DNA of 53,479 bases from an uncultured Clostridia bacterium (GTDB lineage Bacteria > Bacillota > Clostridia > TANB77 > CAG-508). The stretch is from contig CAKPGS010000002.1 in the NCBI GenBank assembly GCA_934155165.1, forward strand, positions 1 to 53,479. The letters are read 5' to 3'. The notes beneath the pieces are model-generated. The model ran no database searches. It had not been told where the DNA came from and was given only the letters and a program-made list of their open reading frames with translations. A program made the position numbers and the translations under genes. Below, piece by piece: positions 44,690 through 52,440 of the stretch. Position 1 is the first letter of the stretch. Every line of letters starts with the position of its first letter.

Positions 44690-44711
44690 GGGCACGGTGC
44701 TTACCGTGCCC
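44690..44711 (-). repeat. GC-rich stem-loop, REP-like family variant lacking GTAG
   Basis: GGGCACGG-tgctta-CCGTGCCC. Same stem as the copies at 46985, 49261 and 50041. Confidence 0.7.
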
Positions 44712-44743
44712 TTATATAATAATTTTATTTAAAATAAGTAGAA

Positions 44744-46240
44744 TTATTCTGACATTCCAAAATTTAATGATTTGTAATTTACATATCGTTCTCTGTATAA
44801 TGCTGTGTAGTATGCTCTTTTTACCGTATCACTTACATTGTTATTACTCATAGCTTCTTGTATTGTATTATATGTGCTTGATGAGGTTACAATGCATTCA
44901 TAACAGGCTGTTGGGTAATCTCTCTCTTGCTTATTAGGATTATTGTGTTGATAATAATAGTTTTCCTCAGTTATATTACCATTTCCTGTTGCTGTATAGC
45001 TTTTTCTTCCAAAGGTTGTATTTCTATATCCTATTACATTACCAGTTATGCTTTGATTTTCTTTACATGTTATTCTATGATATTTATTGTTATTATTATC
45101 TATTAAATATATTTCACTTGGATTTACAAATTCTCTACTTTGTGTGTTTGTTACAACACTGTATCCTCTATAATATTTATTTTTTAGTGGTAGACCTTGC
45201 ATAAATGATATTAAACTTACATTGTTTATTATGTCGTCCCATTCTGTTTCATCTAAATCTGGCATTCTGAAGTCTTCATATTCTCCCATATAGTTTTGTA
45301 GTGTTGATTGTAAATTTGATTGTATAGATTTTTTTATTATCTCTCTTCTATGTTCATTAAATGCACTTGAATAATCATCTGGATCGTTGTTATTGTTAAT
45401 CCTTAAATAACTAGCTTGACTACCCAATTTATTATTTACCCAATTTGTAAATTCATTTGATTCATTTTTATATTTATTTGCACTATCATCTTCAGTAGTA
45501 TTTCCTAGCAAATCTTTATATTGCTTTATTGTTACTTCTTGTAATTTACCTGTTGTTGAATATTCATACCACTTACCATCAAGCAAATAAAATTTATTGC
45601 TTTGTGATGAATCTCCTATTTTCATATATTTATAAGGAACATTATATTTTATTTCACCATTGAAATCTATATTTTCTTTTAAGTTTTCACTTGTTTCTAC
45701 TGTATTTGCACTATTACATAAATATCCTGACTTAGTGACACTCTCTCCATTTACTGTTCCAGCAACCATTATATAACTATCTAAGGTATATGAAACAGTT
45801 ACATTCACATTATTACCAATTATAGGTTCTGTGTAATACACATATGGTTTTAAGCCATATTCTTTGTTACCATCGTTATTTTTATAACCTGTATAAATAT
45901 AATATCCATCGTATAATGTGTATACTAAACAAGGAATATATCCTCTTAAATCTTCTTCTGTATAACCACTAACTCCCATAGATGATGCAAGTGAATTATA
46001 AAAAGATTGTACAGATGCTTGTACATCTCTTATTTTTTCTGTTGGTATGTTTTCAGTTGTACTGTTGCTTTCATTTATTTGAAATGATTTTATTGCATCG
46101 TAAGTTGCATTATTTAGTCTTGAATCATATGCTGATTGCATTGTTATTGTTGATATTTCTGTTTTTATAAATTGTGATACAACCATTGTTATTGGTAATA
46201 TGATTATTATAAATAATACGGTTAGAGTTTGTAGTTTCAT
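44744..46240 (-). CDS. Large pilus-locus protein (498 aa) with N-terminal hydrophobic anchor. Tip, adhesin or TadG-like role is only inferred
   Basis: N-terminus MKLQTLTVLFIIIILPITMVV, N/Y/T-rich extracellular body. Last structural gene of the locus. Confidence 0.55.
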   Translation of the reverse strand: MKLQTLTVLFIIIILPITMVVSQFIKTEISTITMQSAYDSRLNNATYDAIKSFQINESNSTTENIPTEKIRDVQASVQSFYNSLASSMGVSGYTEEDLRGYIPCLVYTLYDGYYIYTGYKNNDGNKEYGLKPYVYYTEPIIGNNVNVTVSYTLDSYIMVAGTVNGESVTKSGYLCNSANTVETSENLKENIDFNGEIKYNVPYKYMKIGDSSQSNKFYLLDGKWYEYSTTGKLQEVTIKQYKDLLGNTTEDDSANKYKNESNEFTNWVNNKLGSQASYLRINNNNDPDDYSSAFNEHRREIIKKSIQSNLQSTLQNYMGEYEDFRMPDLDETEWDDIINNVSLISFMQGLPLKNKYYRGYSVVTNTQSREFVNPSEIYLIDNNNNKYHRITCKENQSITGNVIGYRNTTFGRKSYTATGNGNITEENYYYQHNNPNKQERDYPTACYECIVTSSSTYNTIQEAMSNNNVSDTVKRAYYTALYRERYVNYKSLNFGMSE

Positions 46241-46294
46241 AAATTTTTTCCTTTCGATTTTTTATTAATACTTTTCTAGACAAAAAAGCCACGC

Positions 46295-46320
46295 GGGTCG
46301 TCGGGGACGCCGACCCCTAC
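46295..46320 (-). repeat. REP-like GC-rich stem-loop with GTAG flank
   Basis: GGGTCGtCGgggaCGcCGACCC followed by CTACAACGTCTGA (plus strand). Confidence 0.75.
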
Positions 46321-46387
46321 AACGTCTGACAATTATTATTTTATAACAAATAATATTAATAAAGCCCTTATAATAAGGGCCTTAGTT

Positions 46388-46921
46388 TTAGTAATTTCCT
46401 CCGTTTGAAGTTATTATTCCTGAGTGAGATGCTGCTATTGATGATGTATCGTTTCCTGCTACTCTATATAAAAAGTTTCTTAGTAACTGTGCTATTGTTG
46501 TATTTGTGTTTAGTGCCTTTACAGTAACTATATCTCCTTCTTTTAATACTTTTTTATGCTTGTCATTCTGTTCAATTTCATTTAATATTTGCGTTGTATA
46601 TTGTGTATAATATATATTTTCTCCTATTTTTGTATAATATGTTTGTGTTGTTTTTACTCCTGGGTTTTCATCTAATACTTGTACTTCTATTTGAACATCG
46701 AATGTATTTCCTGTTGAATTTATTGTTTGTACGTATTTATCGTATGCATCTTGTGTTATTTTTCCTGTTGAACGTATATTCTCAACAAATTCTGTTGTTG
46801 CATTTTGTACTGAAAGTTGAGATGTACTATCGCTATTTTCTGAAACTGTTAGTAAAGGAAACACAAACATTAATACTGCAGCAAGTACTATTACTACAAC
46901 TGTAATTAATGAATCTCCCAT
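46388..46921 (-). CDS. Pilus-locus protein (177 aa) with N-terminal hydrophobic helix (minor pilin or TadE-like candidate)
   Basis: MGDSLITVVVIVLAAVLMFVFPLL. RBS AAGGAGG. Confidence 0.55.
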   Translation of the reverse strand: MGDSLITVVVIVLAAVLMFVFPLLTVSENSDSTSQLSVQNATTEFVENIRSTGKITQDAYDKYVQTINSTGNTFDVQIEVQVLDENPGVKTTQTYYTKIGENIYYTQYTTQILNEIEQNDKHKKVLKEGDIVTVKALNTNTTIAQLLRNFLYRVAGNDTSSIAASHSGIITSNGGNY

Positions 46922-46984
46922 TTTTCAAAACCTCCTTAACATTCTATTTATTTATGTTTTTAAATTTTTATTTTTTTGAATTGA

Positions 46985-50952: not shown

Positions 50953-52249
50953 ATCTCCGTATTATGTCGTAAGTTGTTGTTGGTTGCGTATATATATAGT
51001 TTATTGCGACTTTATGCAGTTGTGCAAATAATATAAACGATGCTATAAATGTAACTATGCATATCGAAACTCTATTTATGTATAACCATCTCATTTTTAA
51101 TTTTGAAGCTGAGTCTTTAAGTAAGTCTCTTATTTTTCTATAATCTTTTGTTCCTGGTTTTGGCATAAGTGTATCTATAATTTGTTTTACAATTTTGTTT
51201 TTATATATTTTTTCTTGCCATGGATTTTCGTAATTTTTTGTTGCAGTATTTACTGCTCCATTATCTTTTAGTTTTCTTGTTAGCATATATGCTATAGCTG
51301 TAATTACAAGAATTAATATTTGTACTATTAGACCTTGTTTTCCATAATAAAAACTTTTAGTAAATGAAAATTGACTAACTGACCAATTTTTAATCATTTC
51401 TAAAAATAGCATCGGTACTACAGATATTACGGATAAACTTTGGAATACATAATCTAACTTATCTCTTTTTAATATTTCTAGTTGCATTTCTTGTGTTATG
51501 TTGTTTAGGTTTTTTAAGTATAATGATGAAGATGTGTCTGTTTTTCTATCTCCAAATTCTTTTGTTAGGTATGATATTCCTGCAAATTCTTTTAAGTAGC
51601 TATTGGGTGCTACATCGTAGTATTTTTCTAGTTCCATTTCTGGATCATCTGAAATTAATACTTCATATATTTTTTCTGCTTGTCTTGATACTTCATTTTC
51701 CATTTCTTGTGCTGTTTGATATATTGCTTCTTCCACCATGTTATATTCATGGTAGGCATGACGTATTTCACTGAAGAAATCTATTTGTTGTTTTAATAGG
51801 TTGTTGTCTATTTTATCTACCATTCCATCTATTATTGTGTCTATTAGGAATAATTCGAATATTAATAACATTGCCATTAATAATAGATTCGATTTTGTAA
51901 GAACTATTATTAAAATAGTTGTCGGAATAATAATTCCTAAGGCTTTTGTAAGTATTTGTGCTGATTGTTTTCTTGTTAGATATTCATCATCTATATTGGT
52001 TATTTCAAGTCTTCTTCTAAGTTTTAGTAAATATCTTTTTAATATTGGTATTTTTCTATAATTCAAATATAATTTTTGAAATATTATATCTGCTGAAAAG
52101 GAGCTTTTTTCTGTTCCTTGCCTTAACGCTCTTATTTGTTTCATTTCTGAGCTTTGCATTTTTTTGTTTAATATTAAGAATGCTATTATTATTATTGCTA
52201 GCATTGCTACTGCTGCTATTACTATGTATAATAATACTTCGTTTGACAT
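50942..52249 (-). CDS. TadB-like type II secretion system F-family membrane protein (435 aa, longer than typical)
   Basis: N-terminal TM, central TM pair, cytoplasmic helical domain, C-terminal TMs. Overlaps the start of the TadC-like gene. Confidence 0.55.
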   Translation of the reverse strand: MSNEVLLYIVIAAVAMLAIIIIAFLILNKKMQSSEMKQIRALRQGTEKSSFSADIIFQKLYLNYRKIPILKRYLLKLRRRLEITNIDDEYLTRKQSAQILTKALGIIIPTTILIIVLTKSNLLLMAMLLIFELFLIDTIIDGMVDKIDNNLLKQQIDFFSEIRHAYHEYNMVEEAIYQTAQEMENEVSRQAEKIYEVLISDDPEMELEKYYDVAPNSYLKEFAGISYLTKEFGDRKTDTSSSLYLKNLNNITQEMQLEILKRDKLDYVFQSLSVISVVPMLFLEMIKNWSVSQFSFTKSFYYGKQGLIVQILILVITAIAYMLTRKLKDNGAVNTATKNYENPWQEKIYKNKIVKQIIDTLMPKPGTKDYRKIRDLLKDSASKLKMRWLYINRVSICIVTFIASFILFAQLHKVAINYIYTQPTTTYDIIRRYVG

Positions 52250-52285
52250 TTGTTTTGCTCCTTTCGTTTTTGGTTGTTGTTTTTT

Positions 52286-52315
52286 GCGGTCGTCCTAAGG
52301 ACGCCGCCCCCCTAC
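52286..52315 (-). repeat. REP-like stem-loop, unit 1 of a 3x tandem array
   Basis: GCGGtCGTCC-taa-GGACGcCGC followed by CCCCCTACAACGTTTGACGCTGATT. Confidence 0.75.
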
Positions 52316-52350
52316 AACGTTTGACGCTGATTCGATTTTTGTTTTGTTGC

Positions 52351-52376
52351 GGGTCGTCGAGGACGCCGACCCCTAC
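52351..52376 (-). repeat. REP-like stem-loop, unit 2 of a 3x tandem array
   Basis: GGGTCGtCGaggaCGcCGACCC followed by CTACAGCGTTTGATGCTGATT. Confidence 0.75.
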
Positions 52377-52414
52377 AGCGTTTGATGCTGATTTATCTTT
52401 TGTTTTGTTGTTGC

Positions 52415-52440
52415 GGGCGGACAGAGACGTCCGCCCCTAC
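52415..52440 (-). repeat. REP-like stem-loop, unit 3 of a 3x tandem array
   Basis: GGGCGGAC-agagac-GTCCGCCC followed by CTACGGCGTCTGACATTGATT. Confidence 0.75.

What the first reader, a model, noticed from the sequence alone, without database searches (positions are those of the whole stretch)
44690..52440. REP-like family: GTAG-flanked GC-rich stem-loops with covarying stems in the cistron junctions of the pilus locus
Eight copies lie in 8 kb (44690, 46295, 46985, 49261, 50041, 52286, 52351, 52415). Outliers are at 21340, with degenerate copies at 3141 and 23613. On the gene-sense (minus) strand the consensus is TCAAACG(T/C)TGTAG-[8-9 bp GC stem, 3-6 nt loop]-GCAA(T/C)A(C)AAAA. Stem sequences differ (GGGCACGG, GGGTCG.CG, GGGCGGAC, GCGG.CGTCC) but always keep pairing. 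The flanks stay conserved, and every copy except 44690 keeps the GTAG. A conserved GTAG 5' of a GC-rich imperfect palindrome is the hallmark of proteobacterial REP elements recognised by RAYT (Y1, IS200/IS605-like) transposases, and I am not aware of this family in low-GC Firmicutes. All copies share one orientation. None is followed by a U-run on the sense strand, so they are not classical terminators. Most sit about 20-40 nt upstream of an RBS. This suggests a role in mRNA processing or segmental stability that sets subunit stoichiometry.
Basis: partly seen in the sequence, partly recalled or inferred. Interest (0 to 1): 0.7.

Follow-up and report, generated by a model that had tools for sequence, protein, structure and literature searches.

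The report
REP-type palindromic repeats in gut Clostridia
The GC-rich hairpins between the pilus genes are real copies of a dispersed, strain-variable family of GTAG-tagged REP repeats, a known kind of small repeat not documented for low-GC gut Clostridia in the REP papers I read, and they are recent insertions rather than an ancestral part of the pilus operon.

Summary
In a 27% GC window, ten GTAG-headed GC-rich hairpins lie on the minus strand, eight of them in the pilus locus. The pattern gives 7 hits against 0 expected.

They belong to a dispersed family. A metagenome scan recovered 97 non-redundant elements in low-GC human-gut contigs. Almost all are intergenic, and only 6 of 75 loci are pilus loci. 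The stems fall into a few discrete classes that covary.

The anatomy matches the published REP type cognate to TnpA-REP subclass 2.4: GTAG directly at the foot and three G-C pairs at the stem bottom. RayT-like genes carrying such hairpins are abundant in gut Clostridia. None was found for this lineage in about 0.5 Mb.

Copy number and stem class differ between near-identical strains. Syntenic pilus loci of sister lineages (TadC-like protein 68-82% identical) have short junctions and no such hairpins. The elements are therefore lineage-specific insertions, not conserved operon regulators.

A secondary effect on mRNA stability is possible but untested.

Verdict: new member of a known kind, moderate interest.

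The parts
52415..52452 (-). REP unit 1 of a head-to-tail triple array at the junction between the ATPase and the TadB-like gene. 5' module AATGTCAGACGCC, then GTAG, then hairpin GGGCGGAC-GTCTCT-GTCCGCCC.
   Evidence: fold -18.4 kcal/mol; TRF period 61.
52351..52388 (-). REP unit 2 of the array. TCAAACGCT, then GTAG, then GGGTCGgCG-TCCT-CGaCGACCC with a G.A mismatch in the stem.
52286..52327 (-). REP unit 3 of the array. GTCAAACGTT, then GTAG, then GGGG, then GCGGCGTCC-TTA-GGACGaCCGC.
50041..50076 (-). REP at the junction between the TadC-like gene and the first pilin-like gene. TCAAACGTT, then GTAG, then GGGCACGG-TGCT-CCGTGCCC.
49261..49296 (-). REP between two pilin-like genes, with the same stem class (GGGCACGG).
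46985..47020 (-). REP between the 196-aa and 177-aa ORFs, stem class GGGCACGG, flank TCAAAGATT.
46295..46332 (-). REP between the 177-aa and 498-aa ORFs, stem class GGGTCGGCG...CGACGACCC. A T-run starts 9 nt after the stem.
44690..44711 (-). Hairpin GGGCACGGT-AAGC-ACCGTGCCC without GTAG or the 5' module, upstream of the hicB-like gene. A truncated or derived copy.
21340..21376 (-). REP outside the pilus locus, downstream of lysS. TCAAATGCT, then GTAG, then GGGTCGGCG-TTC-CGGCGACCC.
3140..3162 (-). GTAG-headed hairpin GGGGCGACC-ATT-GGTCGCC followed by T7. A terminator-type copy 20 nt after the toxN stop codon.
23611..23638 (-). Doubtful, degenerate copy (GTAAGGGTAGGCGGCGCCCACTAC followed by a T-run).
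   Evidence: weak fold, -7.1 kcal/mol.
47030..47103 (-). Companion repeat: a 75-nt imperfect long hairpin that is GTAG-headed when read on the plus strand, immediately 5' of the 46985 REP.
   Evidence: -33.6 kcal/mol. A nearly identical copy lies next to a different REP in L197.

Best explanation
These are REP elements of the GTAG-tagged superfamily. Their type is the 'canonical long REP with three G-C pairs at the stem foot', which Quentin et al. 2018 associate with TnpA-REP (RAYT) subclass 2.4.

They form a multi-copy, non-coding DNA repeat family dispersed in the intergenic spacers of a subset of low-GC human-gut Clostridia.

Inferred mechanism. The GTAG-bearing strand folds as single-stranded DNA at the replication fork. 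A RayT-class HUH/Y1 enzyme recognises it and cuts and rejoins it. Units are thereby added, duplicated head-to-tail, or exchanged for another stem class at existing sites.

In this lineage they have colonised six of ten junctions of the pilus operon.

Because they lie inside operons in the sense orientation and mostly lack a U-tract, they should be co-transcribed and form hairpins of -16 to -20 kcal/mol in the mRNA. Any effect on decay or processing is a by-product or a later co-option, not the reason they are there.

Shown: family membership by anatomy, dispersal, strain polymorphism, absence from sister operons, and RayT with cognate hairpins in other Clostridia.

Inferred: RayT dependence in this lineage, single-stranded-DNA mobility, and any RNA-level effect.
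For: Anatomy
- GTAG sits 0 nt from a GC stem whose first three pairs are G-C in 24-28 of 28 sequences.
- This matches the published description (PMC6006769, PMC3733652).

Dispersal
- 97 non-redundant elements were found in low-GC gut contigs. About 85% are intergenic by a crude ORF call, and only 6 of 75 loci are pilus homologues.
- 25 stem classes are present. Four are large and reused at many loci.

Turnover
- The ATPase/TadB-like junction has 1, 2 or 3 units with different stems in strains and species whose proteins are 69-100% identical.
- Modules are present or absent between flanks that are 98-100% identical.

Lineage specificity
- Syntenic pilus loci with 68-82% identical TadC-like protein have no such hairpins in 20 kb.

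Strand-specific constraint
- G.T pairs outnumber A.C pairs 25 to 6 on the GTAG strand.

RayT context elsewhere
- RayT homologues lie next to GGGGCACGG hairpins in three other phyla.
- More than 7,900 RayT-like proteins were recovered, many from Clostridia MAGs. They carry GTAGGGGCGGAT...ATCCGCCC in frame or flanking the gene.
- Vescimonas carries the identical GTAGGGGCGGACGCCTCTGTCCGCCCG.
Against: - No RayT-like ORF was found in the window, in L121 or in about 0.5 Mb of low-GC loci that carry the elements.
- None of 201 recovered RayT homologues encodes the peptides expected from this family's stems.
- Inverted dimers (BIME or REPIN arrangement) are rare. Units are single or head-to-tail.
- A conserved 9-12 nt 5' module (TCAAACGTT) is not part of the classical REP definition.
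- Orientation is 46 of 49 sense between co-directional genes, which would also fit an RNA-level function.
- Copy number per genome could not be measured.
Confidence: 0.7

Rival explanations
1. The hairpins are selected cis-acting RNA elements. As operon-internal stabilisers or processing sites, they block RNase J1 or 3'-exonucleases and so set different levels of ATPase, platform and pilin transcripts. They spread by local duplication.
For: - Sense orientation in 46 of 49 cases.
- G.U-compatible wobble pairs enriched on the sense strand.
- Stable folds.
- No U-tract in 8 of 10 window copies.
- Position 15-60 nt upstream of ribosome-binding sites.
- The same junctions are occupied in several lineages even though the stems differ.
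- Six of 10 pilus junctions are occupied against 3 of 45 elsewhere, Fisher p = 5e-4.
Against: - Absent from syntenic, intact pilus operons of sister lineages.
- Copy number and stem class vary among strains with identical proteins.
- The same cassettes occur at dozens of unrelated loci.
- Sense bias is not distinguishable from the roughly 85% gene-strand bias of Firmicutes, p = 0.05. The two informative cases are split 1:1.
- No Rfam family matches.
Confidence: 0.15
2. They are intrinsic terminators or attenuators that happen to share a GC-rich stem.
For: The 3141 copy has T7 directly after the stem. The 46295 copy has a T-run nearby. Several metagenome copies that lack the 5' module are followed by T-runs.
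Against: Eight of 10 window copies and most of the 97 elements are followed by A-rich sequence on the sense strand, and by no T-run on either strand. The terminator scan did not call them.
Confidence: 0.05
3. They are double-stranded DNA sites: binding sites for a nucleoid or topology protein as with BIMEs, or DNA-uptake sequences linked to the pilus.
For: The 5' module TCAAACGTT contains the palindrome AACGTT and is conserved across stem classes and in a 42% GC Ruminococcus-like genome. The copies are enriched in a pilus locus.
Against: The density (about 0.07-0.13 per kb, a rough estimate) is low for uptake sequences on my recollection of Neisseria and Haemophilus densities. Structure is constrained on one strand only. 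The pilus association disappears in sister lineages. Nothing here tests protein binding.
Confidence: 0.03

Closest known systems
GTAG-tagged REPs, specifically the 'canonical long REP' cognate to TnpA-REP subclass 2.4 (RAYT group 4); Di Nocera 2013 (PMC3733652), Quentin 2018 (PMC6006769)
   Same: 5' GTAG directly at the hairpin foot, three G-C pairs at the stem bottom, 8-9 bp GC stem with a short loop, stem sub-families with complementary changes and G.T pairs, extragenic location, and clustering.
   Different: The host is a low-GC (27%) spore-forming gut Clostridium-type lineage. Units are single or head-to-tail rather than inverted dimers. There is an extra conserved 5' module TCAAACGTT. Orientation is almost uniformly sense. 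No cognate RAYT has been found yet for this lineage.
E. coli REP/BIME with RayT (TnpA-REP subclass 2.2)
   Same: GTAG guide plus an imperfect GC palindrome. Intergenic within operons. A known by-product effect as an mRNA 3'-end stabiliser (the malE-malF precedent, from general knowledge).
   Different: E. coli REPs have longer bulged stems and alternate in orientation within BIMEs. E. coli RayT finds no homologue in the sampled loci.
REPINs (inverted REP doublets, Bertels and Rainey)
   Same: The same REP building block and the same presumed RAYT dependence.
   Different: The defining inverted doublet that forms a long hairpin is rare here. Only L161 and L169 show inverted pairs.
Subterminal hairpins of IS200/IS605 and their miniature derivatives
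   Same: Recognition by a Y1 HUH enzyme on one DNA strand, and strand-biased insertion tied to replication.
   Different: No tnpA or tnpB lies between the copies, there are no distinct left and right ends, and the units are only 35-60 nt.
Rho-independent terminators
   Same: GC-rich hairpin. Two window copies do have a U-run.
   Different: Most copies lack a U-tract on either strand.

Membership tests
GTAG-REP (canonical long REP, TnpA-REP subclass 2.4 type) | 5' GT[AG]G tetranucleotide 0-2 nt from the hairpin foot | tested here: met
   GTAG at 0 nt in 9 of 10 window copies and, by selection, in all 97 elements collected from the window and metagenome loci.
GTAG-REP (canonical long REP, TnpA-REP subclass 2.4 type) | Bottom of the stem made of three consecutive G-C pairs | tested here: met
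   Columns 19-21 paired with 38-40 of alignment A4: G-C in 24, 28 and 27 of 28 sequences.
GTAG-REP (canonical long REP, TnpA-REP subclass 2.4 type) | GC-rich stem of about 7 or more paired bases with a short loop, or a second stem after a mismatch or bulge | tested here: met
   8-9 bp stems, loops of 3-6 nt, and a class with a conserved G.A or A.G mismatch.
GTAG-REP (canonical long REP, TnpA-REP subclass 2.4 type) | Extragenic and present in many copies per genome | tested here: inconclusive
   The extragenic criterion is met: about 85% of the 97 elements are intergenic by a crude ORF call. The family is dispersed, with only 6 of 75 loci being pilus homologues. No complete genome was available, so copy number is only an extrapolation of roughly 100 or more per genome, from 3 copies in 45 kb outside the locus.
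GTAG-REP (canonical long REP, TnpA-REP subclass 2.4 type) | A cognate RAYT/TnpA-REP gene flanked by, or containing, the same REP in the same genome | tested here: inconclusive
   Not found in the window, L121 or about 0.5 Mb of low-GC loci. Found in other Clostridia with their own hairpins: L205, L207, L208-L212. RayT-like proteins score 62-80 bits on NF047646, cut-off 80.
BIME / REPIN organisation | REPs paired in inverted orientation at a regular spacing | tested here: not met
   Window copies all have one orientation. The array at 52286-52452 is head-to-tail. Inverted pairs occur only in L161 and L169.
Intrinsic terminator | Hairpin immediately followed by a U-tract on the transcribed strand | tested here: not met
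   Only 3140-3162 meets it. 46295 has a T-run 9 nt away. The others are followed by A-rich sequence.
Conserved cis-regulatory RNA of the pilus operon | Presence at orthologous junctions of related operons | tested here: not met
   L213-L217, with the same synteny and 68-82% identical TadC-like protein, have no GTAG hairpins and junctions of 23-82 nt.
Any Rfam family | Covariance-model match | tested here: not met
   At gathering thresholds only tRNAs match. At E-value up to 5 there are only chance-level hits.

The most novel reading that the evidence does not exclude
Clostridial REPs may work as 'socket and cassette' elements. A fixed 5' module (TCAAACGTT, then GTAG) would stay at a site while a RayT-class enzyme swaps the GC hairpin behind it for another stem class. 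The host would then have co-opted the resulting sense-oriented hairpins as strain-variable determinants of segmental mRNA stability in operons such as this pilus locus.
Probability: 0.12. Interest if true: 0.65.

Novelty: new member of a known kind. Interest (0 to 1): 0.4.

Why it matters
This extends the GTAG-REP system to low-GC, spore-forming human-gut Clostridia. Its anatomy matches the type cognate to RAYT subclass 2.4. The REP papers I could read do not mention Firmicutes.

The elements differ in number and type between otherwise near-identical strains. That makes them possible strain markers.

It also guards against reading GC-rich junction hairpins in AT-rich operons as dedicated regulators.

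Finally, it gives a concrete natural test of whether REPs alter operon expression: the same operon with and without inserts in sister lineages.

Tried and rejected
1. Megablast of the locus against the phage and plasmid collections found no match.

2. The one genome-contig scan used a stem-specific pattern. I first took this as cross-phylum conservation. I then rejected that reading, because the search was conditioned on that stem.

3. Full-text searches for the sequences, and for RAYT plus Firmicutes, found nothing useful.

4. Two viral-contig scans gave 0 and 1 hits. The single hit, L127 (53% GC), was not examined.

5. The hunt for a RAYT in the element-bearing loci was negative with E. coli RayT, a small mixed profile and a profile built from the recovered Clostridial RayT homologues. 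tblastn against plasmids found none in the Vescimonas replicon.

6. A synthetic RayT query carrying the peptides predicted from this family's stems found no RayT with them.

7. The outer helix formed by the flanks was rejected, at 65% paired.

8. An attempt to separate transcription bias from replication bias using the majority gene strand gave only two informative cases.

9. Exact look-up of window proteins returned no organism names.

10. An attempt to define exact insertion boundaries from filled and empty sites was too noisy.
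Full report
**1. The observation**

The window is a 23-31% GC stretch of a spore-forming Clostridia-type chromosome. It encodes RNase Y, XerD, LysRS, RecN, SpoIVB, SpoVG and MurC.

The region 44.7-53.5 kb on the minus strand carries a T2SSE-type ATPase, two membrane proteins and about seven ORFs whose products start MENAxKAL.

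GTAGGGGN{14,24}CCC gives 7 hits against 0 expected. GTAGGGG gives 10 hits, all on the minus strand, against 0.93 expected. Twenty-base stretches of at least 75% GC occur only at these elements, at one further hairpin (23613) and at a partial duplicate of the tRNA-Glu 3' end.

As RNA the hairpins fold at -16 to -20 kcal/mol.

Rfam has no matching family, either at gathering thresholds or at E-value up to 5.

**2. A dispersed family**

A metagenome scan with the 5' flank, GTAGGGG and the 3' CCCNCAA returned 75 loci. About 65 of them are 25-32% GC contigs, and those with descriptive names are human-gut assemblies.

Together with the window they hold 97 non-redundant GTAG-plus-hairpin elements. 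About 85% are intergenic by a crude ORF call. Only 6 of the 75 loci are homologues of the pilus locus.

The stems fall into 25 classes. Four of them account for about two thirds:
- GGGTCGGCG..CGACGACCC, with a conserved G.A or A.G mismatch
- GGGCGGAC-GCCTCT-GTCCGCCC
- GGGCACGG-TGCT-CCGTGCCC
- GGGTCGGCGTCCTTAGGGCGACCC

On an ungapped alignment of 28 distinct sequences the GC helix is 92% paired, and 4 of its 8 pairs change on both sides. The covariation score is 0.306 against 0.156 in shuffles, with 0 of 500 shuffles reaching it. The covariation is therefore real. It comes from discrete cassettes reused at many loci, not from compensation in place.

G.T pairs outnumber A.C pairs 25 to 6 on the GTAG strand under symmetric scoring. 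The structure is therefore constrained on that strand.

The suggested pairing of the flanks is not supported.

**3. Turnover and lineage specificity**

Other gut assemblies encode an identical TadC-like protein. At the ATPase/TadB-like junction they have one unit of the GGGCACGG class, where the window has three units of other classes. The sequence outside the replaced segment is identical.

Relatives with 69-93% identical proteins have two or three units there, again with other stems.

Elsewhere the same 5' flank is followed by different stem classes in different samples. Whole modules are present or absent between flanks that are 98-100% identical.

Most telling are the syntenic loci of sister lineages, L213-L217. 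They share the SASP, hydrolase, ATPase, TadB-like, TadC-like, pilin, spoIVB and murC order. Their TadC-like protein is 68-82% identical and their GC is 25-27%. Their junctions measure 23-82 nt, and they contain no GTAG hairpin in 20 kb.

The elements are therefore lineage-specific additions.

Within the window they are nevertheless concentrated in this operon. Six of ten pilus junctions are occupied against 3 of 45 elsewhere, Fisher p = 5e-4.

**4. What they are**

The anatomy is GTAG at 0 nt, three G-C pairs at the stem foot, a short GC stem-loop, sub-families with complementary changes and G.T pairs, and intergenic clustering. This is the published anatomy of GTAG-tagged REPs (PMC3733652). 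More precisely, it is the 'canonical long REP' cognate to TnpA-REP subclass 2.4 (PMC6006769).

The genome scan with the GGGCACGG stem hit more than 120 genomes in many phyla, mostly as 'double-foot' palindromes. That form is also described for subclass 2.4. RAYT homologues lay beside three of those hits.

In Firmicutes:
- A Vescimonas fastidiosa replicon (60% GC) has dozens of GTAGGGG hairpins, including the identical GTAGGGGCGGACGCCTCTGTCCGCCCG.
- A Monoglobus RayT-like gene has GTAGGGGCGGATTCCATATCCGCCC upstream and an inverted copy inside the ORF.
- Protein searches returned more than 7,900 RayT-like proteins, many from Oscillospiraceae, Clostridia and Ruminococcus MAGs. Some are already named REP-associated tyrosine transposase. 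Most of the 201 listed hits encode the hairpin in frame as VGADSISAR or RADMESAPT.
- These proteins score 62-80 bits on NF047646 and about 23 bits on the IS200 model.
- A 42% GC Ruminococcus-like genome has such a gene with an embedded REP and an inverted REP 57 nt after the stop codon. It also has dispersed hairpins preceded by TTCAAACGTT.
- Contigs of 29-30% GC (L207, L211) also carry RayT genes with hairpins.

**5. What is not shown**

No RayT-like ORF was found in the window, in the 8.5 kb beyond it (L121) or in about 0.5 mb of element-bearing low-GC loci. This held for three different profiles.

None of the recovered RayT proteins carries the peptides predicted from this family's stems.

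Because a RAYT is usually single-copy, this result is inconclusive rather than negative.

Orientation is 46 sense to 3 antisense between co-directional genes. That is p = 3e-11 against 0.5, but p = 0.05 against the roughly 85% co-orientation of genes with replication that is typical of Firmicutes (general knowledge). The only two informative cases are split. Transcription-linked and replication-linked bias therefore cannot be separated here.

**6. Mechanism**

Most likely (0.7) these are REP elements maintained by a RayT-class Y1 enzyme. The enzyme would act on the folded GTAG strand of single-stranded DNA. The elements have recently colonised the junctions of this operon.

They should be co-transcribed, because most have no U-tract, and they form very stable hairpins. 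A side effect on segmental mRNA stability is plausible but untested, as with REPs in the E. coli malEFG operon (general knowledge).

The rival that they are dedicated RNA regulators of pilus stoichiometry (0.15) is weakened by their absence from sister operons and by strain-level turnover.

A terminator role (0.05) fits only the 3141 copy and perhaps the 46295 copy.

A double-stranded DNA binding or uptake role (0.03) has no direct support.

**7. Verdict**

The REP reading is supported. The RAYT link for this lineage is open. The stoichiometry idea is not supported.

This is a new member of a known kind, with some unusual traits: a low-GC host, head-to-tail arrays, a conserved 5' module, sense bias and cassette replacement. 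Interest is moderate.

Noticed in passing
window 3182-3724 (-) and 3790-3960 (-): A ToxN/AbiQ-type endoribonuclease gene (PF13958, E = 2e-41). About three imperfect repeats of roughly 57 nt (cattaggttaga..gagcctttag) lie just upstream. This looks like a type III toxin-antitoxin (ToxIN) locus. Its terminator is the GTAG-headed hairpin at 3140-3162.
   Followed up: partly
window 44237-44661 (-): A HicA toxin gene (PF07927) and a HicB-like gene (DUF7387) sit between the pilus locus and spoIVB. The syntenic loci L213-L217 have no such pair at this position.
   Followed up: partly
window 42924-43547 and 43510-44160 (-): SpoIVB is split into two overlapping ORFs (PDZ part 216 aa, peptidase S55 part 207 aa). 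Relatives encode one protein of 410-417 aa (L213, L215). This may be a frameshift, a pseudogene or an assembly error. L217 is also split.
   Followed up: no
window 47030-47103 (-); L197 2890-2990: A 75-nt imperfect long hairpin (-33.6 kcal/mol) that reads GTAG-CTCCACGAGTGTGAAG... on the plus strand. It lies next to the 46985 REP. A nearly identical copy lies next to a different REP in another contig. It may be a second, AT-richer GTAG repeat class paired in inverted orientation with the GC-rich REPs.
   Followed up: partly
L129 5880-6030, L182; absent in L132, L154: Another long imperfect hairpin module of about 140 nt (..GCAGCGCCCTCATTAAAAATGAGATTCCCTACTGCGC..). It is present or absent beside a TTGCAAACATTGTAGGGGTCGCAC.. 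REP between flanks that are 98-100% identical. This locus was sampled 21 times, and its REP is antisense to both neighbouring genes.
   Followed up: partly
window 27121-27195 (+) and 27327-27346 (+): The last 20 nt of tRNA-Glu(CTC), GATTCCCGTACGGGTCACCA, are repeated about 130 nt downstream. This looks like a leftover attachment-site duplication.
   Followed up: no
window 37560-37583 (-) and 3140-3162 (-): Two terminator-type hairpins share the stem GGCGACC/GGTCGCC. Only the second has the GTAG head.
   Followed up: no
P0021 compared with P0002 (RayT-like proteins); L205, L209, L211: Clostridial RayT genes carry their REP hairpins in frame on both sides of the HUH motif. P0021 reads VGADSIS-APT, as if the segment between the two inverted REPs, including the HUH motif, had been deleted to leave one double-foot REP. 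In-frame REP insertions and double-foot REPs are already described for subclass 2.4 (PMC6006769).
   Followed up: partly
L204 (Vescimonas fastidiosa pMM35_01, 723-763 kb): Dense clusters of GTAGGGG hairpins of several stem classes occur in both orientations relative to genes, with a conserved flank CTTGTAACGCTTCC. No RayT homologue was detected on this 860-kb replicon by tblastn.
   Followed up: partly
phage collection hits H2-H4, H7-H9 (MT83xxxx, human faecal 'Bacteriophage sp.' contigs): Short unannotated virome contigs contain 27-38 nt matches to the REP consensus. They could be bacterial fragments or phages carrying REPs.
   Followed up: no
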